52,686 bases of DNA from Vicinamibacteria bacterium (GCA_041484265.1 JBGPHH010000002.1:1-52686), one strand, 5' to 3'. Shown: positions 37,985 through 52,686, numbered from the stretch's first letter. Numbers and translations: made by a program. Notes: generated by a model from the letters alone, not told the origin.

Positions 37985-37995
37985 GGTCCGCCGGG

Positions 37996-38736
37996 ATGGG
38001 ACTCATCGGTCTTTTCTATCCGTGGGGATTCATCCTGCAGGCGGCGGCCTTGCTCCATTTCGTCCGGCGCCGGCCCGACACCTACTGGCTCTGGATCATT
38101 CTCATCGGCGGCGGGCTCGGGGCGCTGGTCTACATGGCGGCGGAAGTCGTGCCCGATGTGGAGTTCCTGCGTGGTTCGCTGAACACGTTTGCTCGTCGTC
38201 GAAGAGTCCGCGAACTGGAAACGATCATTCTCGACAATCCGTCAATCGGCAACCGCGAGGAGCTCGCCGATCTTTATCTCGAGGAGGGCGAATTCGCTCG
38301 CGCACGCGAGCTCTACAATCAGATTCTCGCTAAGCGAACCGACTCGCTCGATCCGTTCTATCGACGTGGACTCGCGGCCCTGGAGATGGGCGATATGACG
38401 TCCGCGCTCGCGGATCTCGAACGGGTCGTCTCGAAGGATCCGAAGTACGATTTCTATCGGGCGATTGGGCTGCTCGGAGAGGTCTACGGCCGGACCGATC
38501 AGCCCGAGAAGGCGGAGGCCGCGTTCAAGAGCGCCACCGATATTTCCACGCTGTCGGAGACGTACTACAACTACGCATCGTTTCTCGCAGCCCACCAGCG
38601 CACGGCCGAGGCCAGGGAGTGGGCCGAACGGATTCTGGCCAAGAAACCGACCATGCCGCGGTATCTCCGCAGGCGTGAGCGGCCGTGGTTTTGGAAGGCT
38701 AGCGCGCTGCTGAAACGACTTCCCGCGCGCGTATAA
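37996..38736 (+). CDS. membrane-anchored TPR-repeat protein
   Basis: Two N-terminal TM helices followed by TPR-like helical repeats (LADLYLEEGEFARARELYNQIL, RRGLAALEMGDMTSALADLERVV). Confidence 0.7.
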   Translation: MGLIGLFYPWGFILQAAALLHFVRRRPDTYWLWIILIGGGLGALVYMAAEVVPDVEFLRGSLNTFARRRRVRELETIILDNPSIGNREELADLYLEEGEFARARELYNQILAKRTDSLDPFYRRGLAALEMGDMTSALADLERVVSKDPKYDFYRAIGLLGEVYGRTDQPEKAEAAFKSATDISTLSETYYNYASFLAAHQRTAEAREWAERILAKKPTMPRYLRRRERPWFWKASALLKRLPARV

Positions 38737-38737
38737 T
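38725..38737 (+). promoter_or_regulatory. GCGCGCGTATAAT box overlapping the stop of the TPR gene, 21 nt upstream of the next ATG
   Basis: The same 13-mer recurs at 50355-50367 and 52055-52067. GGAGGAAG RBS lies between the box and ATG 38759. Confidence 0.4.
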
Positions 38738-38758
38738 CCAGCCGGAGGAAGTGAATAT

Positions 38759-39607
38759 ATGAGGCGCATGCTGTGGCGTTCGGTTTCGTTGACCCTGGCG
38801 GCGGCGGCGTGCCTCGCGGCGAGCCCGCCGGCCATGCCGTTTCAGCAGGCCCCGGCGCCGGCGGGGCCCTCGGCGCCGGTCAGTTCCAAAGTCTGGATTG
38901 GTCGCAACGCGGAGTACGAGGCGTTTCTCCGGACCGTAGAGATTACACGGACGGAAGGCTTCAAGAAGGGTGTGACCGGGAAGACCAAGCATGCCTTCTT
39001 CAAGCCCGGCGGGCTGGCCGCCGAAGGGGCGCTCAGAACGGCGCGTCCGGGTTTCTACGACGGCTTCTTCGAAAGCCACCAGTCCGAGCCTGCCGCGTAC
39101 CGGCTCGATCGGTTGCTCGAGCTCGACATGGTGCCACCGGCCGTGGAGCGTCAGTACAACGGTGAGGCGGTGTCGCTGCAGATCTTCATCGGGAATACGA
39201 GGGATCTGAGAGATATCACCGTCCAGAAGTTGCACGCCCCAGATCCTACCAGATGGAACTATGAGCTCCATCGCGCGTACATGTTCGATGACCTCGTGGC
39301 GAATATCGACGATAACGCGACCAACCTGATGTTCGATCCGCAGTGGAATCTGATCAAGATCGATTGCTCGCGCTGCTTCACGAACATGCTGGTGCAGCCG
39401 TTCGAGATCGGCACGAAGCTCAGTCAAATCGATCGACCGTTCTTCGATCGCGTGAAGGCGCTCGACAAGGCCACGGTCGCGCGTGAAATCGGCGATTTGG
39501 TCGAAGGGGGCGCGGTCGATGCGCTCTTTGCGCGGCGTAACGCCATCATCAAAGCCTTCGAGAAGTTGGCGATGCAGAAGGGCGCGAGCCAGGTCTTTGT
39601 TCCCTGA
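38759..39607 (+). CDS. secreted hypothetical protein with atypical-kinase-like (PI3/4-kinase or HipA-like) loop motifs
   Basis: Signal peptide (SVSLTLAAAACLAA). EPAAYRLDRLLELDMVPP and FDDLVANIDDNATNLMF...LIKIDCSRCF resemble catalytic and activation-loop patterns of atypical kinases. The functional call is tentative. Confidence 0.55.
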   Translation: MRRMLWRSVSLTLAAAACLAASPPAMPFQQAPAPAGPSAPVSSKVWIGRNAEYEAFLRTVEITRTEGFKKGVTGKTKHAFFKPGGLAAEGALRTARPGFYDGFFESHQSEPAAYRLDRLLELDMVPPAVERQYNGEAVSLQIFIGNTRDLRDITVQKLHAPDPTRWNYELHRAYMFDDLVANIDDNATNLMFDPQWNLIKIDCSRCFTNMLVQPFEIGTKLSQIDRPFFDRVKALDKATVAREIGDLVEGGAVDALFARRNAIIKAFEKLAMQKGASQVFVP

Positions 39608-39665
39608 TCTCCGACGTCAGACCCCGGACCCCGCTCTGCAGCAGGTCGTCGACCGGTTCTATCCG

Positions 39666-40502
39666 ATGGAGCGGCTGCACCCGACGAACGACGGGGAGCG
39701 CTATGCCTGCTACCAGGTGCTTCGCACCACTCCGACCAACGAGCCCGCGCTGGTGATCGCGGCGTATACGGACCGATCGGCGGGGGCCATCCGCGTGCTG
39801 AGGCGGACCGACAGCGGCACGTTCGAGGTCGCCGACGACAGCCCCGACAGCTGGGCGTTCTCCGGCACCGACTGTCGAATCCGCATCCAGGACCTGGACT
39901 TCGACGGCCAGCCGGAAGCGATCGTCTACTTCGTGGGGGTAAGGGCCTCTCCCGGATGGGTTCTCCGATGGGACGGCACGAAACTCCTGAACCTCACGCC
40001 GACCAAGATTGACCGCGGCCGCGAGTCGTCGCTCCTGCTGAGTCCGGCGGTGTATGACCTCGAGCACACGGGATCGTTGCGCATCATCGCGGCCAGAGAG
40101 ATCGAGCCGCCTGGTTCAGGGCTGTCTCGCAGCCCGGCGTTCGTGTACCGCCTGGGGCCGGCACGATACGAGATGGAGAAAGGGATCCTGGCTGTCATGG
40201 GATTCCGGGCCGACGTCGACCCGCGCGGCAACGTTCGCGTCTTCGGGCTCGTTCAGGACTCAGTCCCGCCGTGGAGGCTGCGGATCATCAACGGCGATCG
40301 ATCGGGCAGGAACCGCGTGACCGGCGCTACCATCCGCATCAACGACCAGGAGGTGACCGGACCGTGGATTGTGAACGAGCGAACCGAGTTCACGACCACA
40401 ACGATCCCGTCGCTGACCACCGTGAATCATCTGACGGCGACACTGACCGGACCGGATGAGGCGTTCATCACCGTGCTCGTCGAGGACAGCACGCAGCGCT
40501 AG
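39666..40502 (+). CDS. hypothetical protein
   Basis: Lies in ORF 39483-40502. ATG 39666 is the first Met after the upstream stop (alternative TTG 39597). There is no signal peptide and no recognised family. Confidence 0.45.
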   Translation: MERLHPTNDGERYACYQVLRTTPTNEPALVIAAYTDRSAGAIRVLRRTDSGTFEVADDSPDSWAFSGTDCRIRIQDLDFDGQPEAIVYFVGVRASPGWVLRWDGTKLLNLTPTKIDRGRESSLLLSPAVYDLEHTGSLRIIAAREIEPPGSGLSRSPAFVYRLGPARYEMEKGILAVMGFRADVDPRGNVRVFGLVQDSVPPWRLRIINGDRSGRNRVTGATIRINDQEVTGPWIVNERTEFTTTTIPSLTTVNHLTATLTGPDEAFITVLVEDSTQR

Positions 40503-40509
40503 CGCCGCC

Positions 40510-43500
40510 TTAGGCGACTGCCGGCTCGGTGATGCGCCGGCGCGAGCGGAGCGCCTTGAACGAGGCCATGTAGGTGTAGACGACGGGCGTCAGATAGAGC
40601 GTGATGAGCTGCGAGACCACGAGCCCGCCAATCACGGCGAGACCCAGCGGACGCCGCGCTTCGCCGCCGGCCCCGAGGCCCAGAGCGATCGGCAGCGCCC
40701 CGAAGAGTGCGGCGGCGGTCGTCATCATGATCGGCCGGAAGCGAATCAAGCAGCCTTCGAGAATCGCCTCGGCCGGCGTGCAGCCGCGCTGACGCTCCGC
40801 CTCGAGCGCGAAGTCCACCTGCATAATCGCGTTCTTCTTGACGAGTCCGATGAGCATGATCAGGCCGACGAACGAGTAGATATTCAACTCGTTGCCGAAG
40901 AGCCAGAGGGTGACGAGCGCGCCCAATCCGGCCGACGGCAGCCCGGAGAGAATGGTGAGCGGCTGCGTGTAGCTTTCGTACAACATGCCCAAAACGATGT
41001 AGACGACGCCGATCGCGATGAAGAGCAATAACCCCATGTTCTCCATCGCGGCTTCGAACACTTTGGCTGAGCCCTGGAACTGGGTCGTGACGGTCGGCGG
41101 CAAGACCTGTTTGGCAACGGTCTTAATGGCGTCGGTGGCGGTGCCGAGCGCCACGCCGGGCCGCAGCCCGAACGAGATGCTGACCGCGGGAAGCTGACCG
41201 GAGTGGTTCACCGCCTGCGGTCCAACGGTCTCCTGGAAATGCACGACCGACTCGAGCGGCACGAGCGCGCCCTTCGTCGTCTTGAACGCGATTCTCTGCA
41301 GCGAGTCGGCGTACTCCTGATACTTGGGATCGATCTCGAGCAGCACACGATATTGCGTCTTCGCGCCGTAGATGGTCGAGGACCATTTGGGGCCCAGGCC
41401 GTCGTTGAGCGCCGTGGAGACTTCCGTGGCGTTCAAACCGATAGAGGCGGCTTTGTCGCGGTCGATCACCAGATTGACGCGCGGACTCTTGATCTCCATG
41501 TCGTCGGAGACATCCTGTAATTGCGGCAGCTCGGCGATCGCCTTCTCGAGCCGTGGCGCCCACGCATAGAGTTCGTCGGTGTTCGCGCTCTGCACCGTCA
41601 GAGTGTAGCTGCTGTTGCTCGTCCTCGCGCCGATGTTGAGGGCGGCGGGGACCGTGACGGACGTGCGGAATCCGGGGAAGCGCGCGAGCGCCGGCCGCAG
41701 CTGCGCCGCAATCTGCGTGGAGGTCAGCGTCCGCGCCTGACGCGGCGTCAAGACCACGGCGATATTCGCGGTATTCCCGCCGCCAATGTTCAAGAAGAAG
41801 TTACTGACGTTGGGATTCTGGATGACGACGTCGGCGACTTTTCTCGCCGAGGTGACCATCTCCTGGAACGCCGTGCCCTGCGCGGCTCGCACCGACACGC
41901 TGATCTGGTCGTTGTCCTGCTCGGGGATGAAACCCTTGGGCACGATGCCGAACATCTCGACCGTCGCGACGAGTACCGCCACAAACACGACGAGCATCGC
42001 CATTCGGTGTCGTAAGACCAGGCCGAGGCTCCACTTGTAGGCGCCAAACATCCCGTCGAAGAGCCGTTCCATCAAACCGGCGAGCCCGCGCTTCGAATGC
42101 AGATTCGCCACCCGCAGGAACCGGCTGCACAACATCGGCGTCAGCGTGACGGACACGACGCCGGAGATGATGATCGCCGTCATGATCGTGACGGCGAACT
42201 CGCGGAAGAGCCGGCCCAGGATGCCGCTCATGAACAGAATCGGGATGAACACGGCGGCGAGCGATGTCGTCATCGTGACGATCGTGAAGAGGATCTCCTT
42301 GGAGCCTTTCAGTGCCGCCTGGAGCGGCGGCTCGCCGTTCTCCATATGCCGCACGATGTTCTCGAGCATCACGATCGCATCGTCCACGATGAAGCCGATC
42401 GAGAGGATGAGCGCCATCATCGAGAGGTTGTTGAGGCTGAAGTGCAGCAGCTCCATGACGGCGAACGTGCCCAGGATGGTAAACGGCAGCGCGAGGGCGG
42501 GAATCAGCGTCGCCGATCCGTTCCTGAGAAACACGAAGATGACGCCGACCACGAGGACGAACGTGACGAGCATCGTCAGCCGGATATCCGAGAACGCCTT
42601 GCGGATGTTCTGGGAATAGTCGCGGGTGATGAGCAGATGCGCCGCCGGCGGCAGTTCCGCGTCGAACACGGGCAGCACGCGACGAATCGCGTCGGTCACC
42701 TCGATGGTATTGGTGCCGGGCTGCTTGGTGACTTGCACGAACACTTCGCGCTTCGGCTCGAGGTTCTTCCTGTACATCCACGCGGCTGTCCTGGTGTTCT
42801 CCACGCTGTCGATGACGGTCGCCAGGTCGCCGAGCCGCACGGGCGCGCCATGCCGGTACGCGACGACGAGCGGCCGAAAGGCGTCGGCGCTGCCAAGTTG
42901 ACCGCCCACTCTGATGGTGTGAGTGGCCGTCGGGCCAAACAGCTGGCCGGTCGGGAGGTTGACGTTCCCGGCCTGCAGCGCCTGGTCGATTTCGTTGAGA
43001 CCGATCTGCTGGGCCTTGAGCTTGTCGGGATCGACCTGCACGCGCACGGCGTACTTCTGCTGGCCGCCGACCGTCACTAGGCCGACGCCGCTGACCATCG
43101 AGATGCGCGGCACGATCAGGGTTTCGAGGTAATCGTTGAGCACCGAGAGCGGCATCGTGCTCGAGAGCAGCCCGATGGTCATAATCGACGAATCCGCCGG
43201 ATTCGTTTTCCTGAACGAGGGCGGCGACGTCATGCCGGTCGGCAGAAGGGGCATCGCGGCGGCGATCTGCGTCTGAACATCAACCGAGGCGCCTTCGATG
43301 TTCCGGTCCAGCGCGAACTGCAGGGTGACGTTCGAGTTGCCGGAGGTACTAGCGGAGGTCATGTCCTCGAGACCGGCAATCGAGGTGAACTGCCGCTCGA
43401 GCGGGCTAGCGACGGTCGAGGCCATCGCGCCGGGGTCGCTCCCCGGCAGGCCGGCGCTGACGCTGATGGTGGGATAGTCGACGTTCGGCAGATCGCTGAC

Positions 43501-43599
43501 CGGGAGCGCCCGGTAGGCCACCGCGCCGAAGAGCGCAATGCCCAGCATGAGGAGGCTCGTCGCGATAGGCCGCCGGATGAACGTCTCGGAGATGTTCAC
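40510..43599 (-). CDS. RND (HAE1, MdtB/MdtC-like) efflux permease, paralog 1
   Basis: From GTG 43599: VNISETFIRRPIATSLLMLGIALFG..., 12-TM AcrB-like architecture, 1029 aa. The start was chosen by homology with paralog 2. The track ORF extension to 44079 overlaps the kinase gene and is rejected. Confidence 0.85.
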   Translation of the reverse strand: MNISETFIRRPIATSLLMLGIALFGAVAYRALPVSDLPNVDYPTISVSAGLPGSDPGAMASTVASPLERQFTSIAGLEDMTSASTSGNSNVTLQFALDRNIEGASVDVQTQIAAAMPLLPTGMTSPPSFRKTNPADSSIMTIGLLSSTMPLSVLNDYLETLIVPRISMVSGVGLVTVGGQQKYAVRVQVDPDKLKAQQIGLNEIDQALQAGNVNLPTGQLFGPTATHTIRVGGQLGSADAFRPLVVAYRHGAPVRLGDLATVIDSVENTRTAAWMYRKNLEPKREVFVQVTKQPGTNTIEVTDAIRRVLPVFDAELPPAAHLLITRDYSQNIRKAFSDIRLTMLVTFVLVVGVIFVFLRNGSATLIPALALPFTILGTFAVMELLHFSLNNLSMMALILSIGFIVDDAIVMLENIVRHMENGEPPLQAALKGSKEILFTIVTMTTSLAAVFIPILFMSGILGRLFREFAVTIMTAIIISGVVSVTLTPMLCSRFLRVANLHSKRGLAGLMERLFDGMFGAYKWSLGLVLRHRMAMLVVFVAVLVATVEMFGIVPKGFIPEQDNDQISVSVRAAQGTAFQEMVTSARKVADVVIQNPNVSNFFLNIGGGNTANIAVVLTPRQARTLTSTQIAAQLRPALARFPGFRTSVTVPAALNIGARTSNSSYTLTVQSANTDELYAWAPRLEKAIAELPQLQDVSDDMEIKSPRVNLVIDRDKAASIGLNATEVSTALNDGLGPKWSSTIYGAKTQYRVLLEIDPKYQEYADSLQRIAFKTTKGALVPLESVVHFQETVGPQAVNHSGQLPAVSISFGLRPGVALGTATDAIKTVAKQVLPPTVTTQFQGSAKVFEAAMENMGLLLFIAIGVVYIVLGMLYESYTQPLTILSGLPSAGLGALVTLWLFGNELNIYSFVGLIMLIGLVKKNAIMQVDFALEAERQRGCTPAEAILEGCLIRFRPIMMTTAAALFGALPIALGLGAGGEARRPLGLAVIGGLVVSQLITLYLTPVVYTYMASFKALRSRRRITEPAVA

Positions 43600-43631
43600 T
43601 GCTTTCACCCCCCCCGTTGCCTGACCGATTC

Positions 43632-43672
43632 CGGCATTGTAGGGGTTTCGCCCGGCCAATGCGAGGTGAATC
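43632..43672 (-). promoter_or_regulatory. conserved 41-nt upstream block with TACAAT (sense strand), copy 1
   Basis: cggcattgtaggggtttcgcccggccaatgcgaggtgaatc, versus copy 2 at 49630-49670. The first 16 nt and about 17 of the last 19 nt are identical. Confidence 0.4.
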
Positions 43673-43700
43673 AGGCGACCGCCGGCGTGCGCGTTTGCGG

Positions 43701-46304
43701 TCAGTGCAGGGGGATCCGGAATAGATTGCGTTGCATGTCTGTCTTGGTGAACACGTATGTCGAAGGGTCGGGCCCGGTCGACAGAGAAGCGTGTTCGATC
43801 ACCCGGGCGCCGGGGAGTTGAGCCCCCGTCGCCACGTCGATTCCAGAAGCGGGCAAGTCCGGCAACGATTTGCCGGCCGGCACGGGAATCGCGAGCGCCT
43901 TCCCCGGAGAGGTCGCCGACGTAGTCAGATCCATCGCGACATAGAAGAATGTTCCGTCGGAAGACCACCCTGCCAGGCAGCCTGGGGCACAGATTGTCTT
44001 GGGCGCGCCGCCGTGGATGGGTACGGCGAGCGCCGCACCAGTGCCCACGCCAGCCCCAGGTGAGAGCACGACCACCCACTCGCCGTCGGGCGACACACCG
44101 AGCTTGTCCAGAACCGACGCGGACGTGATTCGTTCTCGTCCCGTTCCGTCCTTCTTGATTCGGACCAGCGCGTTGTTCTCCGCCGGCGATCGGAAGACCA
44201 GCGCTCCGTCGCCGCCGAAGGACACCTGATCGCCGTCGGCGATCTCACGAGGAGGTGAGCGCCGGTCGAGGGGCGCCAGCCAGACATGCGATTCTCCGCC
44301 GCTGCTCGTTGTCGCGAAGGCCACTTCCTTGTCGTCACGCGAAATGTCGAAATCGGTGACTGAGACACCCGACAGCACACTGTCGCTCTTCCCGGAAGCG
44401 AGGTCCAACGAGCGCAATTCGGCAGACGCGGCCACCCAGCCGAACCGCGATAACCACCAATCCCGGACAAGGAGATAGAACACGTGTGTGCCGTCCCGGG
44501 AAAGGCGCGGAGCCGCGGCGTAACCTTCCGACGAGATCGCCCGCTCGCCGGTCGCGTCGTGCATCCAGATCGCACTCCGGCGCGTCCCGACCGAGGTCAC
44601 CAACGACCGGCCGTCCGGCGCCAGCGCAACGCCTTCCTCTTCGAGCGGGCCGAAGGTGACCTGCTCCGGTACTCCGTTAGGAAACTTCTGGCGCCAGAGG
44701 TGCGAGCTGCCTCTAACCGTCGCGCCAAAGTACATCCACCGTCCGTCCGGCGACCAGGCGGTTGAGGTGCACGTGCCCGGAGGTCCAACCTGCCGGCCCG
44801 CAGAGCTCCCGTCGAACGGCACCAGCCGGCACGGTTGAGTGAACGCGTGGGCGCTGGTCATTTCGACCACGAGCATCCACTGACGGTCCGGTGACGCATA
44901 GGAGTAGTGCGCCATCGCGTGCTCGTCGGGCTGAATATAGATCTCCCGCGCGTCCGCCCGGCCTTCCGTCGCGGTCACAATCCCCATGTGGAGGCCGGTC
45001 TTGATCTCGGAAAACAGCACCCGATGATCGGTGATCCAGGTGAGTCCGGAGGCGTTGGGCAGGAGCAGCGTCGGCTGGCCTCCGAGCACCGGAACAGTCC
45101 ACGTGTCCCAGTGACCGGTCGTCCACTGCGTGAACGTGATACGTGAGCCGTCTGGGGTAAAGACCGGTCCGAACTTGGAAATTGCGGAGTTGGTGAGCGG
45201 TACCGATTCGCCATTCGGGAGCAGCTTGACGTAGATCTGACCGCTGCTCAAGAAAGCGTCATTGCCGCGCTTGAATGTCAGCATTCGTCCATCCGGCGAC
45301 AAGCTGGGCGCCGTCGCCGAATCAGTGAAGTTCGTCAGCTGCGTGTACTCGGATGGTGAGGTCACGGGTCGTGAAGATTTCGCCACATAGAACAAGCCCG
45401 CACCGGCGGCGACCGCGAGCGGCAGCACCACGAGCCCGACCGCACGGTACATCGGACGTCGAGCTGCGGGCCGAGGCGTGACGATCGCAACCTCGCTGCT
45501 GTCTCGCTCCGCCCGCTTCAGGTCGGCGCGCACATCGGCGGCCGACTGGTAGCGCGTCTCTCGGTCCTTTTCAAGTAGCCGGCCGATGATCCGCTCCAGC
45601 GCCGGCGAGATCTTCGGATTCCGCTCGCGCACCGGCACCGGGGCCTTCCCAAGGAGCGCCTCAAAGGTGACCGCGGACGTCGAGCCGTCAAACGGTCGCA
45701 CGCCCGTCGCCATCTCATAGAGGACGACACCGAACGACCAGAGGTCAGTGCGGGCGTCCGCGGTTTCCCCGCGGGCTTGCTCGGGCGACATGTAGGCGAC
45801 CGTCCCCATGGTGGTGCCCGGATCCGTGACGGCTTCGGTCCGCTGGTCAATGGTGGCTTCCATGGCTCCACGGATGATCATGGCGAGGCCGAAGTCGAGG
45901 ATCTTCACCTGGTCGTTGCGGGTGACGAGGATGTTGCCAGGTTTCAAGTCGCGATGGACGATGCCCGCGGCGTGCGCGGCCGTCAGGCCGTCGGCGATTT
46001 GCCCCGCTAACTCGAGGAGCCGCTGAGGGCTGTCCGTGGGCCGAATGGGCACGCCGTCCACAAATTCCATGACCAGGTAGTTCGGCCCGATATCGTACAG
46101 CTGGCAGACGTGCGGATGGTTGAGCGCGGCCACAGCCCGAGCTTCACGCTCGAAGCGATCGGAGAACTGCTCCTTGGAGACTTTGATCGCGACGAGGCGG
46201 TCCAGCCGCGTGTCGCGTGCCTTATAGACGTCGCCCATGCCGCCCGCGCCAAGCGGGGCCAGAATCTCGTACGGTCCGAGGCGGGTGCCGGCAGTGAGGC
46301 TCAT
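43701..46304 (-). CDS. Ser/Thr protein kinase with TM segment and C-terminal TolB-like (PD40/WD40-like) beta-propeller region
   Basis: GxGxxG (LGAGGMGDV), AIK, HRDLKPGNIL, DFGLA, and SPEQ, followed by a TM segment (VGLVVLPLAVAAGAGLFYV) and repeated SPDG/APDG propeller motifs. Confidence 0.9.
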   Translation of the reverse strand: MSLTAGTRLGPYEILAPLGAGGMGDVYKARDTRLDRLVAIKVSKEQFSDRFEREARAVAALNHPHVCQLYDIGPNYLVMEFVDGVPIRPTDSPQRLLELAGQIADGLTAAHAAGIVHRDLKPGNILVTRNDQVKILDFGLAMIIRGAMEATIDQRTEAVTDPGTTMGTVAYMSPEQARGETADARTDLWSFGVVLYEMATGVRPFDGSTSAVTFEALLGKAPVPVRERNPKISPALERIIGRLLEKDRETRYQSAADVRADLKRAERDSSEVAIVTPRPAARRPMYRAVGLVVLPLAVAAGAGLFYVAKSSRPVTSPSEYTQLTNFTDSATAPSLSPDGRMLTFKRGNDAFLSSGQIYVKLLPNGESVPLTNSAISKFGPVFTPDGSRITFTQWTTGHWDTWTVPVLGGQPTLLLPNASGLTWITDHRVLFSEIKTGLHMGIVTATEGRADAREIYIQPDEHAMAHYSYASPDRQWMLVVEMTSAHAFTQPCRLVPFDGSSAGRQVGPPGTCTSTAWSPDGRWMYFGATVRGSSHLWRQKFPNGVPEQVTFGPLEEEGVALAPDGRSLVTSVGTRRSAIWMHDATGERAISSEGYAAAPRLSRDGTHVFYLLVRDWWLSRFGWVAASAELRSLDLASGKSDSVLSGVSVTDFDISRDDKEVAFATTSSGGESHVWLAPLDRRSPPREIADGDQVSFGGDGALVFRSPAENNALVRIKKDGTGRERITSASVLDKLGVSPDGEWVVVLSPGAGVGTGAALAVPIHGGAPKTICAPGCLAGWSSDGTFFYVAMDLTTSATSPGKALAIPVPAGKSLPDLPASGIDVATGAQLPGARVIEHASLSTGPDPSTYVFTKTDMQRNLFRIPLH

Positions 46305-46508
46305 GGTGCCACCCTTCGTGAATGTCGACTGTGAGGCGCGTCACGCGCGCTCGACACGGGACCAAAGTTGGGCCGGTCGGCGCGCCCCCAACAACGGGCT
46401 TGGGGAGGGGGCGCTACTCGAACGCTGGCAGGCTCAGTTCTGGATGACGGTTTCCACTATACAGGATCGAGGTAGGCGCAGGCCGAACGTGGAAGGCTCG
46501 CGCGCTGC

Positions 46509-49500
46509 TCAGGCGACGGCGGGCTCGGTGACGCGGCGGCGCGGGCGGAGGGCATTGAAGGCCGCCATGTAGGTGTAGAGGACTGGCGTGAGGTACAGCG
46601 TAATCAGCTGCGAAACCATCGGACCACCGATGACTGCGAGACCGAGCGGCCGCCGCGCTTCGCCGCCAGCCCCGAGTCCCAAGGCGATCGGAAGCGCGCC
46701 AAAGCGCGCCGCCGCCGTGGTCATCATGATCGGCCTGAAGCGAATCAGACATCCTTCGAGAATGGCCTCGGCCGGCGTGCAGTTGCGCTGGCGCTCCGTT
46801 TCGAGGGCGAAATCTACTTGCATGATCGCGTTCTTCTTGACGAGCCCGACGAGCATGATCAGGCCGACAAACGAGTAGATGTTCAACTCGTTGCCGAAGA
46901 GCCACAGCGTGATGAGCGCACCCAGGCCGGCCGACGGGAGCCCGGACAGAATCGTCAGCGGCTGCGTGTAACTTTCGTAGAGCATGCCCAGCACGATGTA
47001 GACGACGCCGATGGCGATGAAGAGCAGCAAGCCCAGGTTCTGCATCGACGCTTCGAACACCTTGGCCGATCCCTGGAACTGCGTCGTCACCGTGGCCGGC
47101 AGCACGCGCTTCGCCAACTGGTTGATGGCGGTCGTGGCGGCGCCGAGCGACACGCGTGGACGCAAGGCGAAGGAGATCGTCACCGACGGCAGTTGTCCGG
47201 AATGATTGATGGTTTGCGGTCCGACGGTCTCTTGAAAGTGCACGACCGATTCGAGCGGTACGAGTGTGCCCTTGGCCGTCTTGAATGAAACCTGCCGGAG
47301 CGAGTCTGTGTACTCCTGATAGCGCGGATCGAGCTCGAGCAGCACGCGGTACTGCGTCTTGGCGCCGTAAATCGTGGACGACCACTTGGGACCGAGGCCT
47401 TCATTGAGAGCGCCCGCGATTTCCGACGCGTTCAGCCCGACGGCGGCGGCTTTATCGCGATCGAACACTAAGTTCACGCGCGGGCTCTTGATCTCCATGT
47501 CGTTGGTGACGTCCTGGATTTCCGGCAGCTCGGTCATCGCCTGATCGAGCTGGTTCGCCCACGAGTAGAGATCGGCCGTGTTCGCGCTCTGGACGCTCAG
47601 GTTGTAGCTGCTGTTGCTGGTCCTCGCGCCAATTTGCAGGGCGGCCGGCACGGTGACCGTCGCCCGCACGTTAGGGAAGCGCGCGAGCTGCGGCCGAAGC
47701 TGCTGTGCGATCTGCGCGGCCGTCACCGGCCGCTCCTGCCGCGGCGTCAGTCTCACGGCCAAAGACGACGAGTTCATCGCGCCGCCACCGACGTTCATGA
47801 AGAAGTCGTATACGTACGGATTCTTGATGACCACTTCGGAGACCTTCTTCGAAGAGTCCACCATCTCCTGGAACGACGTGCCCTGGGCCGCGCGGATGTT
47901 GACGTTCAGCGTGTCGTTATCCTGATCGGGAATGAAGCCCTTGGGCACGATGCCGAACATCTCGACCGTCGCGATGGGCACGGCCAGAAAGACGACGAGC
48001 ATCGCCATCCGGTGCCGCAGAACGAGCGAGAGGCTCCACTTGTAGGCGCTGAACATCCCGTCAAAGAGGCGCTCCATCAAACCGGTGAGCCCGCGCTTGC
48101 TGTGCAGACTCGCCACGCGCAGGAACCGGCTGCATAACATCGGCGTCAGCGTGACGGACACGACGCCGGAGATGACGATGGCCGTCATGATGGTGACGGC
48201 GAACTCTCGGAAGAGCCGGCCCAGGATGCCGCTCATGAAGAGAATCGGGATGAACACGGCCGCGAGCGACGTCGTCATCGTGACGATCGTGAAGAGGATC
48301 TCTTTTGATCCGCTCAGTGCTGCCTGGAGCGGCGGCTCGCCGTTCTCCATGTGGCGCACGATGTTCTCGAGCATCACGATCGCATCGTCCACGATGAAGC
48401 CGATCGAGAGGATGAGCGCCATCATCGAAAGGTTGTTGAGGCTGAAGTGCAACAGCTCCATGACGGCGAACGTGCCCAGGATGGTAAACGGCAGCGCGAG
48501 CGCGGGAATCAACGTGGCCGAACCGTTCCTGAGGAACGCGAAGATGACCAGGACCACGAGCACGAAGGTGACGAGCATCGTGAGCTGGATCTCGGAGAAC
48601 GCCTGCCGGATGTTCTTGGACGCATCGCGGCGGACCGACAGGTGCACCGACGGCGGGAGCGAGGCGTCCAGGGCCGGCAGCACCTGCCGGATGGCGTCCA
48701 TCACCTGGATGGTGTTCGTGCCGGGTTGGCGCGTCACCGTCATGAAGATCTCGCGCCGCGTTTCCTCTTTGCTGTAGAGCCAGGCGCCGGTCCTCGTGTT
48801 CTCAACGCTGTCGATAACGTTGGCGATGTTGTCGAGCCGCACGGGCGCGCCGTTGCGGTAGGCCACGACCACCGGGCGGAACGCCTCGGCATTCGGCAGC
48901 TGGCCAATCGTGCGAATGCTGAACGTTTGCGTGGGGCCGAACAACTGACCGGTGGGGATGTTGACGTTCCAGCTCTGCAGGGCCTGATCGACCTCGTTCA
49001 GCCCGATATGCAGGTTCCTCAGCTTGTTCGGATCCACCTGCACGCGCACGGCGTACTTCTGCTGGCCGTTGACCGTCACCTGCGCGACGCCGCTCACCAT
49101 GGAGATGCGCGGCGCGATCAGGTTTTCCGCGTAGTCGTCGAGCGCCGACAGCGGCACGCCATTCGACACGATGCCCAACGTGAGAATCGAGCCCTCCGCA
49201 GGATTGACTTTCTTGAACGACGGTGGCGCCGGCATGCCCGACGGCAGGAGCGGCATCGCCGCCGCAATTTGTGTTTGCACGTCAACGGCCGCGCCCTCTA
49301 TGTCGCGGCTCAGGTCGAACTGCAGCGTGACCGTGGACGTGCCGGCCGAGCTTGCGGCCGTCATGTCCTCAAGGCCGGAGATCGCGGTGAACTGCCGTTC
49401 GAGGGGACTCGCGACGGCCGAGGCCATCGTGTTCGGATCGCCGCCCGGCAACGCCGCGCTGACCGTGACCGTGGGGAAGTCGATGCTGGGCAGATCGCTG

Positions 49501-49601
49501 ACCGGGAGCGCCCGGTACGCGAGCACACCGAAGAGCGCGAGCGCCAGCATGAGGAGGCTGGTCGCGATGGGCCGCCGGATGAACGTCTCGGAGATGTTCA
49601 C
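46509..49601 (-). CDS. RND (HAE1, MdtB/MdtC-like) efflux permease, paralog 2
   Basis: 1030-aa ORF starting MNISETFIRRPIATSLLMLALALFG (GTG). Collinear with paralog 1 over its full length. Confidence 0.9.
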   Translation of the reverse strand: MNISETFIRRPIATSLLMLALALFGVLAYRALPVSDLPSIDFPTVTVSAALPGGDPNTMASAVASPLERQFTAISGLEDMTAASSAGTSTVTLQFDLSRDIEGAAVDVQTQIAAAMPLLPSGMPAPPSFKKVNPAEGSILTLGIVSNGVPLSALDDYAENLIAPRISMVSGVAQVTVNGQQKYAVRVQVDPNKLRNLHIGLNEVDQALQSWNVNIPTGQLFGPTQTFSIRTIGQLPNAEAFRPVVVAYRNGAPVRLDNIANVIDSVENTRTGAWLYSKEETRREIFMTVTRQPGTNTIQVMDAIRQVLPALDASLPPSVHLSVRRDASKNIRQAFSEIQLTMLVTFVLVVLVIFAFLRNGSATLIPALALPFTILGTFAVMELLHFSLNNLSMMALILSIGFIVDDAIVMLENIVRHMENGEPPLQAALSGSKEILFTIVTMTTSLAAVFIPILFMSGILGRLFREFAVTIMTAIVISGVVSVTLTPMLCSRFLRVASLHSKRGLTGLMERLFDGMFSAYKWSLSLVLRHRMAMLVVFLAVPIATVEMFGIVPKGFIPDQDNDTLNVNIRAAQGTSFQEMVDSSKKVSEVVIKNPYVYDFFMNVGGGAMNSSSLAVRLTPRQERPVTAAQIAQQLRPQLARFPNVRATVTVPAALQIGARTSNSSYNLSVQSANTADLYSWANQLDQAMTELPEIQDVTNDMEIKSPRVNLVFDRDKAAAVGLNASEIAGALNEGLGPKWSSTIYGAKTQYRVLLELDPRYQEYTDSLRQVSFKTAKGTLVPLESVVHFQETVGPQTINHSGQLPSVTISFALRPRVSLGAATTAINQLAKRVLPATVTTQFQGSAKVFEASMQNLGLLLFIAIGVVYIVLGMLYESYTQPLTILSGLPSAGLGALITLWLFGNELNIYSFVGLIMLVGLVKKNAIMQVDFALETERQRNCTPAEAILEGCLIRFRPIMMTTAAARFGALPIALGLGAGGEARRPLGLAVIGGPMVSQLITLYLTPVLYTYMAAFNALRPRRRVTEPAVA

Positions 49602-49629
49602 GACTTACACCCCCTCAGGAACCGACTCG

Positions 49630-49670
49630 CGGCATTGTAGGGGTTCGCTGGGGCCAATGCGAGGCGAATC
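49630..49670 (-). promoter_or_regulatory. conserved 41-nt upstream block with TACAAT (sense strand), copy 2
   Basis: cggcattgtaggggttcgctggggccaatgcgaggcgaatc, at the same distance from the RND start as copy 1. Confidence 0.4.
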
Positions 49671-49720
49671 CCCGTCGATATTGTTTCCTTACGACGGCGG
49701 GGCCAGGGCTCCGGCTGCCT

Positions 49721-50325
49721 CTAACGAGCGGGCGCCGGCGCGACCTCGGCGCCCGCGATCTTGCCGCGCTCGAGAGACGCCTTCACGAAGCCGGATCCAC
49801 GCACGTCCTCGATGGACCGGTTGATCGCGCGGCGACCGCTTCCATGCGAGCGCGGTTGGCGGCGAACACGTCGAGCCGGCCGCTGACCAGCATCTCTTCA
49901 ATTTCGGCGGAAGGCGGCGTGAGGGGCAGGACGTCCACGTGTGCCTTCTTCAGATTGGCGCTGACGTAGATCTCCTGCGATTGCCCTTTGACGGCGCCCA
50001 CCTTCGTGCCGGCGCGATCCACGTTGCCCGACGTGCGGATCGTCGAATCGGCACGGACGAGGTAGGCGTTCTGCATGAGCGCGTACGGCGCGGAGAACTC
50101 GACCTCGGTGGCGCGTGCGGCCTCGTAGGCGAGAATTCCGATGTCGGCCCGGTGCGCCTTGACGCTGTCGATCACGGCCGAGGCGTTCGGCAGGGGATCG
50201 ACCCGCCCTTGTACCGGGTTGTCGCCGAGGAACGTGGCGCGCAGGGTCCCGGTGGGCGCGAGGCTCGGCGCGGTGAGTTGCAGGGCCACGACGGCTGCCG
50301 GAAGCAGGTTCAGCACTCCGTTCAT
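49721..50325 (-). pseudogene. decayed family-3 (amino-acid-type) solute-binding protein gene
   Basis: Signal peptide MNGVLNLLPAAVVALQLTAPSLA and the SBP_bac_3-like core (LRATFLGDNPV..., ADIGILAYEAARATEVEFSAPY) lie in one frame. The family-like C-terminus (AINRSIEDVRGSGFVKASLERGKIAGAEV...*) lies in another frame from about 49828. Segments expected between these parts are missing. Confidence 0.55.
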
Positions 50326-50351
50326 GCGGCCATTATAGGAACGCGTCGCCG

Positions 50352-50369
50352 TGCGCGCGTATAATTCGC
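50352..50369 (+). promoter_or_regulatory. TGCGCGCGTATAATTCGC box upstream of the STAS gene
   Basis: 18-mer identical to 52052-52069. TATAAT at 50360-50365 lies 52 nt upstream of GTG 50418, which is preceded by AAGGAGG. Confidence 0.4.
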
Positions 50370-50417
50370 TGCCCATGAGTCGTGAACCGGAAAGCGAGCT
50401 GTCGCAAGGAGGCATGC

Positions 50418-51116
50418 GTGCCGCTGTCGTTGCAGAGCCGTCGGGTCGGTGACATCACCGTCGTGAAATGCCGCGGCCGGATCGTCGAGGGCGCCGAGTC
50501 TGCCGCACTGTCACAGCATCTGACCGATCGGCTCTCCGACGGCCCGCACATCGTCCTCGACCTGGGCGATGTGGCGTTTCTCGACAGCGCCGGCCTCGGG
50601 CTGCTCGTCTTGTGGCTCAGCCGGGTCCAGGCGGCGCGCGGACGCTTCACCCTGTGTGCGCTCCCGCCCCACATCGTTGAGGTGTTGCGGGTCACGAAGC
50701 TCCGGACCGTCCTCGAATCGTACGCGTCCGAGGAGGAGGCCATCGCCGCGTGTTATCGGTCGGGCCGGTCACCTGACGCGGTCTATCGGTTCACGACCGA
50801 CATCCTGTGCGTGGAACCTTCCGACGAGGTGTTGGCGTATGTCCGGCAGCTGTTGGGCCAGGCCGGCTACGGCGTCGTCACGGCGAGCAATCTGCCCGAC
50901 GGGCTCGTGCTCCTGATGGCCACGCAGCCGAAGGTCGTGGTGATGGGCGCCGCCCTGCGCGCGCAGCGCGGCACGCAAACCGCCGACAAATTCACCAGGC
51001 TCGCGGAGGCGCGGGCCGTGGTCGAGTTGCCCGTGGGGTTTTCGACGCGCGATGCGGGCGACGCGGGCCGACACCTGCTCGATCAGGTGCGTGCGCTGAC
51101 GGGTGGACGTTCATGA
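50418..51116 (+). CDS. STAS-domain (anti-sigma-factor-antagonist-like) protein fused to a degenerate receiver-like domain
   Basis: GTG 50418 is preceded by AAGGAGG. STAS pattern: ITVVKCRGRIVEGAESAALSQHL...IVLDLGDVAFLDSAGLGLLV...EVLRVTKL. The C-terminal half has receiver-like topology (ILCVEPSDEVLAYVRQLL...KVVVMG) but lacks the acidic pocket residues. Confidence 0.65.
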   Translation: MPLSLQSRRVGDITVVKCRGRIVEGAESAALSQHLTDRLSDGPHIVLDLGDVAFLDSAGLGLLVLWLSRVQAARGRFTLCALPPHIVEVLRVTKLRTVLESYASEEEAIAACYRSGRSPDAVYRFTTDILCVEPSDEVLAYVRQLLGQAGYGVVTASNLPDGLVLLMATQPKVVVMGAALRAQRGTQTADKFTRLAEARAVVELPVGFSTRDAGDAGRHLLDQVRALTGGRS

Positions 51117-52039
51117 CACGCACGGAGATGGCCGCGCTCGTCGCCCGCCGGGAGGACGCGTGGAATCGGCACGACATCGCAGAACTGAGTCGCTTGAACG
51201 CGCCGGATTGTCGCGTCGAGAGTCCGACGGCCGGGAGGATCGTGATAGGCCTGCAGGCCGTCGAGGACATCAACCGGGCGTGGGTGACCGGCTTCCCGGA
51301 CGTCGTGTTTGCCACGACGGATGTGTTGATTGATGGTGACGAGTTTGCGTGGATCCTCACGGCCACCGGCACCGACACGGGTGGGTTCATGGGCCTGCCG
51401 CCGACCGGCCGGTTCTTCGAGCTCCCGATGGTGATCCTGGCCACGGTGCGCGACGGCCAGATCGTGGAGGAGCGGCGCATCTACGATTTCACGGGCATGC
51501 TGCTGCAGGTCGGGATTCTCTCGGCGAAGGCGAGTCCCGCGACGGCGGCCCGCGTCCGAGCGGCGAGTCCGCCCATCGACATCGCTGCGGGGCACGTGAG
51601 CCCGGCGATTCCGTCTGTGCCGCGGGCAGAGGTCCTCACGCTCCTGGAGCAACGCCACGTGGCGTTGGCGCGCCGTGACATTCATGCGCTAGCGGCACAG
51701 CACACGGCGGACTGTGTCATGGACAGTCACGTGGCAGGACGGGTCGAAGGGCACGCGGCGATCGCGGAGGTCTACGACGCGTGGTTTCGCGCGTTTCCTG
51801 ACAACGTGCTGACTGTCGAGCGCGCCATCGTGGACGATAACCGTGTCGCCGAGATGGTCATCCAGTCCGGCACCGACACGGGCGGGTTCCTGGGCACGCC
51901 TCCCACCGGCAAGCCGTTCCGCATCCCCATGGTGTGGCTCTTAACGATCGAGAAGGGCCGCTTCAGCTACGTGCGCCCGCTCTACGACTTTACCGGCCTG
52001 CTGGTGCAGATCGGCGTGCTGAAAGCGAAGCCGGTGTAA
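51113..52039 (+). CDS. tandem SnoaL-like/ester-cyclase (NTF2-fold) two-domain protein
   Basis: ATGA overlap with the upstream gene. Two homologous halves each contain ...AWNRHD/ALARRDI...TGTDTGGFMGLPPTGR.F..PMV...G.I..ER.IYDFTG.L.Q.G.L. Confidence 0.7.
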   Translation: MTRTEMAALVARREDAWNRHDIAELSRLNAPDCRVESPTAGRIVIGLQAVEDINRAWVTGFPDVVFATTDVLIDGDEFAWILTATGTDTGGFMGLPPTGRFFELPMVILATVRDGQIVEERRIYDFTGMLLQVGILSAKASPATAARVRAASPPIDIAAGHVSPAIPSVPRAEVLTLLEQRHVALARRDIHALAAQHTADCVMDSHVAGRVEGHAAIAEVYDAWFRAFPDNVLTVERAIVDDNRVAEMVIQSGTDTGGFLGTPPTGKPFRIPMVWLLTIEKGRFSYVRPLYDFTGLLVQIGVLKAKPV

Positions 52040-52051
52040 TCAACCCGCCGC

Positions 52052-52069
52052 TGCGCGCGTATAATTCGC
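52052..52069 (+). promoter_or_regulatory. TGCGCGCGTATAATTCGC box downstream of the SnoaL-like gene and upstream of the kinase gene
   Basis: Identical to 50352-50369. About 220 nt upstream of ATG 52287. Confidence 0.35.
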
Positions 52070-52286
52070 CCATTCCCGCGCGATGGCGCCGACCATCCGG
52101 CGACACCGGCGAGCACGATTGAAGTGATGCACGAAGGACTCGTAGAGCGGACGATCTTAGAACTTGGGCGACCGCTGAGGCTGGGGCAGGTGTGCCCAGC
52201 CTCGATTCACGCGCAGCAGCTCTCGCCCCGCCGAAGTCCCGTATCAAAGCCACTCGAGGCCGTATGATCCAAGCACCCTTTTCATC

Positions 52287-52686
52287 ATGCCCTTGACGCC
52301 GGGCAGTCGCGTCGGTCCGTACGAAATCCTCTCCCTGTTGGGTCAAGGCGGGATGGGCGAAGTGTATCGCGCCCGTGACACCAAGCTCAGCCGCGATGTC
52401 GCTATCAAGTTGCTGCCTAATGAACTTGCGGATATTCCCGCGAGACGCCGCTTTCAACGAGAAGCCCAAATGGCTTCTTCGCTCAACCATCCGCACATCG
52501 TGACGGTGCACGACGCCGGCGAATTCGAGGGCCGTCAGTACTTGGTGACCGAGTTCATTGATGGTGGCACGCTGCGTGGGTGGGTGCCTGAAGCCAAGCA
52601 CTCGTGGCACGAAACGCTCGACCTGCTGACGGGCGTGGCCGATGGACTCGCGGCGGCGCACCAGGCCGGAATTCTGCATCGCGACA
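52287..52686 (+). CDS. Ser/Thr protein kinase, N-terminal part (runs off the window)
   Basis: Absent from the ORF track because it has no stop codon. Manual translation gives MPLTPGSRVGPYEILSLLGQGGMGEVYRARDTKLSRDVAIKLL...LNHPHIVTVHD...AAAHQAGILHRD, paralogous to 43701-46304. Confidence 0.85.
   Translation, partial: MPLTPGSRVGPYEILSLLGQGGMGEVYRARDTKLSRDVAIKLLPNELADIPARRRFQREAQMASSLNHPHIVTVHDAGEFEGRQYLVTEFIDGGTLRGWVPEAKHSWHETLDLLTGVADGLAAAHQAGILHRD

What the first reader, a model, noticed from the sequence alone, without database searches (positions are those of the whole stretch)
40510..49670. Duplicated adaptor-less MdtB/C-like RND pumps flank a Ser/Thr kinase; the porter domains diverge while the transmembrane core is homogenised
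Seen in sequence:
- Two full-length RND permeases of 1029 and 1030 aa lie in the same orientation, separated only by a TolB-like Ser/Thr kinase gene.
- Neither has a periplasmic adaptor or outer-membrane factor gene next to it.
- The proteins differ frequently through the N-terminal periplasmic (porter) region.
- A central block of about 200 aa (roughly FLRNGSATLIPALALPF... to ...GIVPKGFIP) is almost identical. At the DNA level it includes a 74-nt perfect match (42350-42423 = 48355-48428).

Established: E. coli MdtB and MdtC, the closest family I recognise, function as a heteromeric RND trimer with the adaptor MdtA.

Inference:
- A gene-conversion tract or strong constraint homogenises the proton-relay core while the substrate-binding parts diversify.
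- This is compatible with a hetero-trimeric pump or with two specificities sharing partners.
- The kinase embedded between the pumps could be a regulator.
- The required adaptor must be encoded elsewhere. The triple-adaptor locus at 13-16.7 kb is a candidate.
Basis: partly seen in the sequence, partly recalled or inferred. Interest (0 to 1): 0.65.

Follow-up and report, generated by a model that had tools for sequence, protein, structure and literature searches.

The report
Orphan RND pump pair with conversion tract
Two related drug-pump genes in a soil/sediment Acidobacterium (Vicinamibacterales) have copied a 0.5-kb piece from one to the other and, like all their closest relatives, lack a partner gene next door; this is a well-documented but fairly ordinary case.

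Summary
Two Mdt-like HAE-1 RND permease genes flank a Ser/Thr kinase gene: A at 40510-43599 (1029 aa) and B at 46509-49601 (1030 aa), both on the minus strand. No adaptor or outer-membrane gene is nearby.

The near-identical central block is a real gene-conversion tract:
- It covers A codons about 353-525 (TM2 end to TM6, including the DD proton-relay pair).
- Synonymous difference there is 0.18, against 0.38-0.45 in seven control pairs and about 0.49 elsewhere in A-B.
- Outside the tract, A and B each group with different metagenomic orthologues (AU p=0.0003 against A+B). Inside it they are sisters. The donor was B-type.
- The second transmembrane bundle is conserved only at protein level, so the "homogenised core" is only half true.

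A and B are old paralogues in a region that two same-genus genomes lack. They are not a recent tandem duplication.

Lack of an adaptor is a clade trait. In the 24-member clade, 12 are orphan, 11 undeterminable and 1 linked. The sister clade sits in MFP-RND-RND operons.

The adaptor genes at 13-16.7 kb precede a MacB-type permease. The kinase link is not conserved in relatives.

The likely mode is an adaptor borrowed in trans, as for E. coli AcrD; this is inferred. Interest is modest.

The parts
40510..43599 (-). RND-A: Mdt-like HAE-1 RND permease, 1029 aa with a GTG start. It is the recipient of the conversion tract.
   Evidence: PF00873 scores 966 bits. NCBIfam RND_permease_2 scores 1115, MdtC 1003 and MdtB 1000, all below the curated cut-offs. 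The closest solved structure is E. coli MdtB, 9lyq. The motifs IVDDAIV (404), VKKNAIM (920) and RFRPIMMTT (953) are present.
43701..46304 (-). Hanks-type Ser/Thr kinase, 867 aa: cytoplasmic kinase domain, one TM helix (aa ~288-308) and a periplasmic PD40/TolB-like beta-propeller.
   Evidence: Pkinase 3e-42 and PD40 1e-19. TM helix. It is one of at least 38 kinase-domain loci in the MAG, and its propeller part has no close paralogue there.
46509..49601 (-). RND-B: Mdt-like HAE-1 RND permease, 1030 aa. Its lineage donated the tract.
   Evidence: PF00873 scores 985 bits. In the flanks it is sister to the metagenomic orthologue P0005 with support 100/99.
42025..42543 (-). Conversion tract in A: CDS nt 1057-1575, codons 353-525 (end of TM2, TM3-TM6 and the cytoplasmic linker; includes D406/D407).
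   Evidence: All-site max-chi2 gives 93.1% nt identity inside against 77.4% outside. Synonymous-only max-chi2 places it at codons 368-508, with 14% against 40% of synonymous-comparable codons differing and 0 of 500 permutations reaching that value.
48030..48548 (-). The same tract in B (the donor-type copy).
42350..42423 (.). 74-nt perfect identity with 48355-48428. It covers the TM4 region that encodes GFIVDDAIVMLENIV.
   Evidence: Exact string match that cannot be extended. Permutation p<1e-4.
43632..43672 (-). Conserved upstream block of A, with a CCCTACAAT -10-like element about 36 nt before the GTG.
   Evidence: Aligned with 49630-49670. CCTACAAT also sits directly upstream of the orthologues in L049 and L050.
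49630..49670 (-). Conserved upstream block of B, carrying the same element.
49783..50415 (-). Truncated SBP_bac_3-like ORF upstream of B. It occupies the position where an adaptor gene would sit in a canonical operon.
   Evidence: Only a partial, sub-threshold SBP_bac_3 match, 25.1 bits against a cut-off of 26.4.

Best explanation
A and B are two old paralogues of a Vicinamibacterales-specific clade of Mdt-like (MdtB/MdtC-related) HAE-1 RND permeases. The members of this clade are encoded without a neighbouring adaptor or outer-membrane gene.

Shown:
- After the two lineages had split, about 0.5 kb was copied non-reciprocally from the B-type gene into A. The copied piece is A codons ~353-525, running from the end of TM2 to TM6 and including the Asp-Asp proton-relay pair.
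- Since then the tract has accumulated synonymous differences (pS 0.18, against ~0.49 in the rest of the gene). It is therefore an old, single or patchy conversion event and not ongoing homogenisation.

Inferred:
- The tract most likely lies there because this is the stretch with the highest DNA identity between paralogues 6 kb apart, which is where homologous recombination can start. Selection for a uniform core is not required.
- Each gene keeps its own conserved upstream block with a TACAAT -10-like element and is probably transcribed on its own.
- Both proteins retain the full tripartite-type architecture and the proton-relay residues. They most likely work as proton-driven efflux pumps that borrow a periplasmic adaptor and an outer-membrane channel encoded elsewhere, as E. 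coli/Salmonella AcrD borrows AcrA-TolC.
- The kinase gene between them is most likely an unrelated neighbour in a variable genome segment.
For: Conversion:
- Sliding NG86 dS is 0.13-0.31 in codons 350-525, against 0.4-2.0 elsewhere.
- The TM8-12 block is 94% identical in protein but has dS of about 1.2, which serves as an internal control.
- Central pS for A-B is 0.18, against 0.38-0.45 in seven control pairs. The rest of the gene is 0.48-0.51 in all pairs.
- Three other same-genome paralogue pairs have a central/rest ratio of about 0.8, against 0.37 for A-B.
- The synonymous max-chi2 value was reached by 0 of 500 permutations.

Topology:
- In the flanks, (B,P0005) has support 100/99 and (A,(P0003,P0008)) 100/99. 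The AU test rejects A+B with p=0.0003.
- In the central block, (A,B) has support 98/91. The AU test rejects A with its flank relatives (p=0.018) but not B with P0005 (p=0.30), so B-type was the donor.

Clade-level orphan state:
- In the 98%-supported 24-member clade, 12 members are orphan, 11 are undeterminable and 1 is MFP-linked.
- In the sister clade, 26 of 28 members are MFP-linked.
- The closest metagenomic relatives P0005, P0006 and P0008 have no adjacent MFP.
- Four other Mdt-like RND genes in the same MAG (C32, C34, C138, C144) are also orphan.

Architecture and function:
- Only 3 clade-diagnostic residues and no domain-scale indels separate the orphan clade from the operon-type clade.
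- The relay motifs are present in both copies.
- Overall dN/dS is about 0.19.

Other:
- Own promoter-like blocks upstream of each gene.
- AcrD precedent (PMC8446912).
- Assembly support from four runs.
Against: - The trans-adaptor step is pure inference. No partner was identified, and the MAG is only about 72% complete.
- No expression data exist.
- The groups used in the AU tests were chosen after seeing the trees.
- The central region is somewhat less variable at synonymous sites in all pairs (0.43 against 0.50), so part of the dip is general.
- Depth peaks of foreign contigs over 42.07-42.44 and 48.31-48.67 kb show that short stretches here are conserved at DNA level across community members.
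- Two of about 8 Mdt-like RND genes in this MAG are followed directly by a Pkinase+PD40 gene (window and C34). That is more than the ~1% expected per gene, so a kinase link is not excluded.
Confidence: 0.75

Rival explanations
1. The central block is similar only because of unusually strong purifying selection, acting on protein and on codon or mRNA level, over the proton-relay bundle. No DNA was transferred.
For: This is the most conserved part of the family. pS in the block is a little lower in all pairs, 0.43 against 0.50. Short foreign contigs map there at 95% identity or more.
Against: - The drop is specific to the A-B pair: 0.18 against 0.38-0.45 in seven controls and about 0.3 in other intragenomic pairs.
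- The equally constrained TM8-12 block has saturated dS.
- The tree topology changes, with AU p=0.0003 and p=0.018.
Confidence: 0.05
2. The mosaic, or the RND-kinase-RND order, is an assembly chimera of a metagenome bin.
For: The genome is a 353-contig MAG. The two copies share 30-74-nt identical runs. A strain variant with 19 substitutions and indels exists at 43731-43835.
Against: - Logan contigs from four different runs cover all five junctions with 0 differences in most pieces.
- The tract carries 36 nt differences spread along it. A collapsed repeat would not show these.
- The identical runs are shorter than typical assembly k-mers.
Confidence: 0.04
3. A and B form a heterotrimeric pump, like MdtB2C, and selection keeps their TM2-6 bundles alike for joint proton coupling.
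For: - The closest characterised family, MdtBC, is heteromeric. In relatives the homologues sit in MFP-RND-RND operons (PMC7015380).
- The two genes carry the same upstream block, which suggests co-regulation.
Against: - A and B are both of the same operon position type ('a-type'). The canonical partner type ('z-type', ~54% identical) is on another contig, C34.
- Orthologues of A and of B occur singly in other organisms.
- Tandem a-type pairs in relatives show no such tract.
- The tract has been decaying since the event (pS 0.18).
Confidence: 0.1
4. The beta-propeller Ser/Thr kinase senses an envelope signal and regulates the flanking pumps, by phosphorylating them or through a regulator.
For: - The kinase has the same orientation as the pumps and short spacers of 101 and 204 nt.
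- A second orphan Mdt-like RND (C34) is also followed by a Pkinase+PD40 gene.
- M. tuberculosis PknD, also a propeller kinase, was reported to phosphorylate the RND-superfamily transporter MmpL7 in vitro (PMC1847690).
Against: - The arrangement is not conserved. The contexts of P0005, P0006 and P0008 and all 50+ canonical operons have no kinase.
- The MAG has at least 38 such kinases, and the C34 kinase is not this one's closest paralogue.
- Each RND gene has its own promoter-like block.
- A STAS anti-anti-sigma-type gene at 50382-51116 is a more conventional kinase target (PMC1847690).
Confidence: 0.1
5. The orphan clade works without any adaptor or outer-membrane channel. It would move substrates only from the inner membrane or cytoplasmic leaflet into the periplasm, or export an envelope lipid.
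For: The whole clade has been unlinked from adaptor genes over long divergence (branch lengths 0.3-0.5 substitutions per site) yet remains under purifying selection.
Against: - No loss or remodelling of the docking or porter subdomains relative to operon-type relatives. There are only 3 diagnostic residues and 1-2-residue indels.
- AcrD shows that unlinked RND genes can still be tripartite (PMC8446912).
Confidence: 0.1

Closest known systems
E. coli MdtABC (MdtB2C heterotrimer) and P. aeruginosa MuxABC-OpmB
   Same: - Same RND subfamily. The best NCBIfam models are RND_permease_2, MdtC and MdtB/MuxB, and the best solved structure is MdtB 9lyq.
- Relatives at 65-70% identity sit in MFP-RND-RND operons.
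   Different: - All scores are below the equivalog cut-offs.
- This locus has no MFP.
- A and B are both the first-position type. They are 80% identical, whereas MdtB and MdtC are about 50% identical.
- An unrelated gene separates them.
E. coli/Salmonella AcrD (RND permease gene without its own adaptor, served by AcrA/AcrE-TolC)
   Same: A monocistronic RND permease gene with intact tripartite-type architecture and paralogues elsewhere that do have adaptors. The proposed mode of action is the same (PMC8446912).
   Different: - It belongs to a different RND subfamily: the AcrD model scores only 449 bits.
- Here a whole clade, and at least 5-6 genes in one genome, are orphan.
- The partner has not been identified.
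Ectopic gene conversion / concerted evolution between bacterial paralogues (e.g. rRNA operons, tuf genes; survey in PMC6053082)
   Same: Paralogues in one genome are more alike than each is to its orthologue over a defined tract. Synonymous divergence is lowered and the phylogeny is incongruent.
   Different: This is a single old partial tract of about 0.5 kb in a 3.1-kb gene. It is not whole-gene or recurrent homogenisation.
M. tuberculosis PknD (receptor Ser/Thr kinase with an extracellular beta-propeller)
   Same: Same overall build of kinase domain, one TM helix and propeller. There is an NCBIfam PknD match at 1.5e-36. Reported substrates include an RND-superfamily transporter and a STAS protein (PMC1847690).
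   Different: - The propeller is of PD40/TolB type; my recollection that PknD's is NHL type was not checked here.
- The score is far below the cut-off (126 against 839 bits).
- No functional link was shown here.

Membership tests
RND superfamily, HAE-1 type (Pfam ACR_tran PF00873) | Full-length match to the 12-TM, two-periplasmic-loop ACR_tran model above the gathering score. | tested here: met
   A scores 966 bits and B 985 bits (cut-off 28), covering model positions 1-1019 of 1021.
RND superfamily, HAE-1 type | Proton-relay residues: the Asp-Asp pair in TM4, Lys in TM10, and Arg/Thr in TM11. | tested here: met
   IVDDAIV at A404/B403, VKKNAIM at A920/B921 and RFRPIMMTT at A953/B954. Equivalence to AcrB D407/D408/K940/R971/T978 is from my knowledge of the family and was not aligned here.
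NCBIfam RND_permease_2 subfamily (NF033617) | Score at or above the curated cut-off of 1250 bits. | tested here: not met
   A scores 1114.8 and B 1102.4. This is the best-scoring model but it falls below the cut-off.
MdtB/MuxB (NF007798) or MdtC (NF007905) equivalogs | Score at or above the equivalog cut-off (1584 or 1774 bits). | tested here: not met
   A scores 1000 (MdtB) and 1003 (MdtC). B scores 987 and 1001. The two models cannot be told apart.
MdtABC/MuxABC-type operon | An adaptor gene followed by two different RND permease genes in one operon. | tested here: not met
   There is no MFP or OEP near A or B. Both are the same 'a-type'. Relatives do have the operon.
MdtB2C-like heterotrimer | The two permeases assemble into one trimer. 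| not testable with these tools
   This needs co-purification or a structure.
Orphan RND served in trans (AcrD-like) | No cis adaptor gene. | tested here: met
Orphan RND served in trans (AcrD-like) | Function depends on an adaptor and OMF encoded elsewhere. | not testable with these tools
   The MAG has many MFP loci, including several with no RND beside them (C16, C58, C241, C76, C217, C60, C27). No pairing can be inferred from this.
Ectopic gene conversion | A pair-specific drop in synonymous divergence over a bounded tract. | tested here: met
Ectopic gene conversion | Phylogenetic incongruence between the tract and the flanks. | tested here: met
   (AU p=0.0003 and p=0.018).
Hanks-type Ser/Thr kinase | Pkinase domain above the gathering score. 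| tested here: met
   145 bits against a cut-off of 31.7. The catalytic HRDLKPGN and DFG motifs are visible in the translation.

The most novel reading that the evidence does not exclude
Vicinamibacterales carry whole clades of Mdt-like RND permeases that have been permanently uncoupled from adaptor genes. In this genome at least five such genes are orphan. They could form a pool of interchangeable permeases that share one or a few adaptors, or that work without any adaptor. In this species, beta-propeller receptor kinases placed directly downstream of two of them might control which permease is active.
Probability: 0.12. Interest if true: 0.6.

Novelty: new member of a known kind. Interest (0 to 1): 0.3.

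Why it matters
- **Textbook-quality example.** This is a clean case of partial ectopic gene conversion between transporter paralogues in an uncultured Acidobacterium. It has an internal control: the second TM bundle separates conversion from constraint.
- **Caution for annotation and phylogeny.** Whole-gene identity (80%) wrongly suggests a recent duplication. Outside the tract, each copy has a closer orthologue in another organism.
- **Clade-wide loss of adaptor linkage.** This is relevant for predicting efflux systems from operon structure in soil and sediment Acidobacteriota. It suggests that adaptor sharing of the AcrD type may be common there.
- **No new mechanism.** None of this points to a new mechanism.

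Tried and rejected
- **RNA evidence.** No RNA run holds the gene, so co-expression could not be examined.
- **Sigma-70 consensus scan.** It found no promoter in 40.3-50 kb. The TACAAT blocks rest on conservation only.
- **Residues or indels separating orphan from operon-type clades.** A search for signs of a changed partner surface gave only 3 residues and 1-2-residue indels, which is uninformative.
- **Informative-site mapping of A-like patches in copy B.** This looked positive at codons 651-700 and 751-800. It is unreliable, because only one B-clade relative with private changes was available, and dS there is high. I rejected it.
- **A possible second, older B-like patch in A.** Codons ~860-945 show 5 b-like against 1 a-like sites and dS of about 0.45. 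I could not establish this.
- **Species-representative genomes.** They hold no homologue closer than 71%, so the donor/recipient test rests on metagenomic contigs.
- **The 13-16.7 kb adaptors as partners.** I rejected these because they directly precede a MacB-type permease.
- **Contig contamination.** I rejected this because flanking housekeeping genes are 83-87% identical and syntenic with same-genus genomes.

Full report
**1. What is there**

The window is the whole 52,686-bp contig C2 of a 353-contig, 4.05-Mb metagenome-assembled genome, about 72% complete. Homologues are named Vicinamibacterales (Acidobacteriota), and the runs that hold the sequence are sediment metagenomes.

Three genes lie on the minus strand:
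- RND-B, 46509-49601, 1030 aa.
- A Ser/Thr kinase, 43701-46304, 867 aa. It has a Pkinase domain, one TM helix and PD40/TolB-like repeats.
- RND-A, 40510-43599, 1029 aa. It starts at the GTG that aligns with the start of B and of all relatives.

Both permeases are full-length ACR_tran proteins. Their best NCBIfam models are RND_permease_2, MdtC and MdtB/MuxB, all below the curated cut-offs. The closest solved structure is E. coli MdtB, 9lyq. Both carry the Asp-Asp, Lys and Arg/Thr relay motifs.

**2. The observation**

- A and B are 80% identical in protein and in DNA.
- The 74-nt perfect match sits exactly at the stated coordinates. It is longer than any run in 10,000 shuffles.
- Logan contigs from four runs span every junction of the flank-A-kinase-B-flank order.

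**3. Conversion or constraint?**

Sliding Nei-Gojobori estimates give dS of 0.13-0.31 for codons ~350-525, against 0.4-2.0 elsewhere. The second transmembrane bundle (codons 926-1000) is 94% identical in protein but has dS of about 1.2. Protein constraint alone therefore does not lower dS in this gene.

A two-breakpoint max-chi2 test on synonymous-comparable codons places the tract at codons 368-508. There, 14% of such codons differ, against 40% outside, and 0 of 500 permutations reach that value. On all sites the tract is codons 353-525, which is 42025-42543 in A and 48030-48548 in B. Identity is 93.1% inside and 77.4% outside.

The dip is specific to this pair:

| Comparison | Central pS | Rest pS |
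|---|---|---|
| A-B | 0.18 | 0.49 |
| Seven comparisons with the closest orthologues' DNA | 0.38-0.45 | 0.48-0.51 |

Comparisons with C32 and family-level homologues behave the same way. Three other intragenomic paralogue pairs have a central/rest ratio of about 0.8, against 0.37 for A-B.

**4. Topology**

Metagenomic proteins at 74-79% identity (P0003-P0009) resolve the history.
- Outside the tract, B is sister to P0005 (100/99) and A is sister to P0003+P0008 (100/99). The AU test rejects an A+B clade with p=0.0003.
- Inside the tract, A and B are sisters (98/91) and P0005 is the next nearest. The tract data reject A with its flank relatives (p=0.018) but not B with P0005 (p=0.30).

So A and B are old paralogues that diverged before these organisms split. 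A later received a B-type central segment. With dS of about 0.21 inside against about 0.8 outside, the event is old, and 36 nucleotide differences have accumulated since.

The tract covers the end of TM2, TM3-TM6 and the following linker, and not TM7-12. The 'homogenised core' is therefore only half the core. I infer that the tract lies there because this is where DNA identity between the copies was highest. Tandem paralogues in relatives show no recurrent homogenisation of this segment.

Porter-domain divergence has window dN/dS of about 0.26 (codons 276-325) and 0.55 (codons 601-650), and it mirrors the control pairs. It is ordinary.

**5. Adaptor-less state**

No MFP (TIGR01730) or OEP (PF02321) match lies near the pair. 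The only MFP-like matches in the contig are at 13.6-16.6 kb. These are HlyD_D23 proteins directly followed by a MacB_PCD/FtsX permease, so they form a MacB-type ABC system.

In 11 family-level genomes the closest homologues (65-70%) sit in MFP-RND(a-type)-RND(z-type, ~54%) operons, and sometimes there are two a-type copies.

I then classified 130 RND genes from 79 species-representative loci, the metagenomic contigs and this genome. I used locally built MFP and RND profiles and placed the 134 sequences retained for the tree (the high-scoring subset plus six metagenomic proteins) on a tree built without the tract columns:
- A and B fall in a 24-member clade with 98% support: 12 orphan, 11 undeterminable at contig edges, and 1 MFP-linked.
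- A second clade of 12 has 10 orphan members and 2 undeterminable.
- In the sister clade, 26 of 28 members are MFP-linked.

The contexts of P0005, P0006 and P0008 confirm this. One of them (L049) has a z-type RND, a peptidase gene on the other strand and an a-type RND, with no MFP. In this MAG, the Mdt-like genes on C32, C34, C138 and C144 are also orphan. Only the one on C55 has an adaptor.

Orphan and operon-type clades differ by three diagnostic residues and 1-2-residue indels, so the tripartite-type architecture is intact. Overall dN/dS between A and B is about 0.19. [quoted passage not shown] This step is inferred.

**6. Own control regions**

A 41-nt block with CCCTACAAT lies about 36 nt upstream of both GTG starts. 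CCTACAAT also lies just upstream of the orthologues in L049 and L050. This fits separate transcription of each permease gene.

**7. The kinase**

- The MAG has at least 38 Hanks-type kinase loci. The propeller part of this kinase has no close paralogue there.
- No kinase is adjacent to any orthologue or canonical operon examined.
- Against pure chance, the z-type orphan RND on C34 is also followed directly by a Pkinase+PD40 gene. My rough estimate for two such adjacencies among ~8 genes is p of about 0.003. However, the two kinases are not each other's closest paralogues.
- A regulatory link is possible, given the PknD-MmpL7 precedent cited in PMC1847690, but it is unsupported.

**8. Genomic setting**

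The DUF255 gene at 33.9-36.0 kb is 83-87% identical to same-genus genomes. Synteny with those genomes ends at about 38.75 kb (G002) or about 36.4 kb (G001). Neither of the two same-genus genomes has any homologue of A or B above about 32% identity. The RND-kinase-RND segment therefore lies in a variable, species-specific part of the chromosome.

**9. Verdict**

The conversion inference is confirmed and refined: an old, partial tract running from B to A. The functional inferences (heterotrimer, kinase regulator, nearby adaptors) are unsupported or contradicted. This is a new member of known kinds, namely orphan RND permeases and ectopic gene conversion.

Noticed in passing
window 38725-38737, 50353-50365, 52053-52065: The 13-mer GCGCGCGTATAAT occurs three times in the whole 4.05-Mb MAG, and all three copies are in this contig on the + strand. 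Each lies just upstream of a + strand gene. The first copy coincides with the end of synteny with a same-genus genome, and copies 1 and 2 bracket the 11.6-kb segment that holds the RND-kinase-RND unit. It could be a promoter-like element or a recombination scar.
   Followed up: partly
window 36400-52686 compared with L135 and L136: Synteny with the two same-genus genomes stops after the DUF255 gene (G001) or after tatC (G002). Those genomes have no Mdt-like homologue above ~32% identity. The segment is therefore accessory to this species, either gained here or lost in both others.
   Followed up: partly
G000 contig C34, 2982-8949 (locus L052): A second orphan Mdt-like RND, the z-type (54% identical to A), is followed about 100 nt downstream on the same strand by another Pkinase+PD40 kinase of 898 aa. 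An MFP-like gene lies 14 kb away on the same contig.
   Followed up: partly
window 43731-43835: Logan contigs of runs X1 and X2 carry a variant of the last ~45 codons of the kinase gene. It has 19 substitutions and 1-3-nt insertions within ~100 bp, while the flanks are identical. This is a strain-level hypervariable or recombinant patch next to A's upstream region.
   Followed up: no
window 13088-18020: Two intact HlyD_D23 adaptor genes (14118-15344 and 15394-16716) precede a MacB-type permease (16713-18020). A third adaptor-like frame at 13601-14185 contains an in-frame TGA. No ABC ATPase gene was checked.
   Followed up: partly
window 50382-51116 and 52179-52686: A STAS (anti-sigma-factor antagonist) gene with a weak receiver-like C-terminal half lies between the RND region and a further Ser/Thr kinase gene that runs off the contig end. 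STAS proteins are known kinase substrates (PknD-Rv0516c), so this is a more conventional target for the local kinases than the pumps.
   Followed up: no
window 43549-43599: The public gene call for RND-A (P0001, 1012 aa) starts 17 codons downstream of the conserved GTG-AAC-ATC (VNISETF) start used by B and by all homologues.
   Followed up: yes
loci L063, L052: In the Acidobacterial MFP-RND-RND operons, the first permease scores slightly higher on the MdtC model and the second on the MdtB model. This is the reverse of the E. coli mdtABC order. The margins are only 50-80 bits.
   Followed up: partly
loci L070 and L086: Contigs binned as 'Bifidobacteriaceae' and 'Betaproteobacteria' MAGs carry RND genes that nest inside the Vicinamibacterales orphan clade. 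They are probably mis-binned contigs.
   Followed up: no
window 42069-42435 and 48308-48674: Contig depth in all four sediment runs is 3-20 times higher over the TM4 region than over the rest. Short contigs of other community members match this stretch at 95% or more.
   Followed up: no
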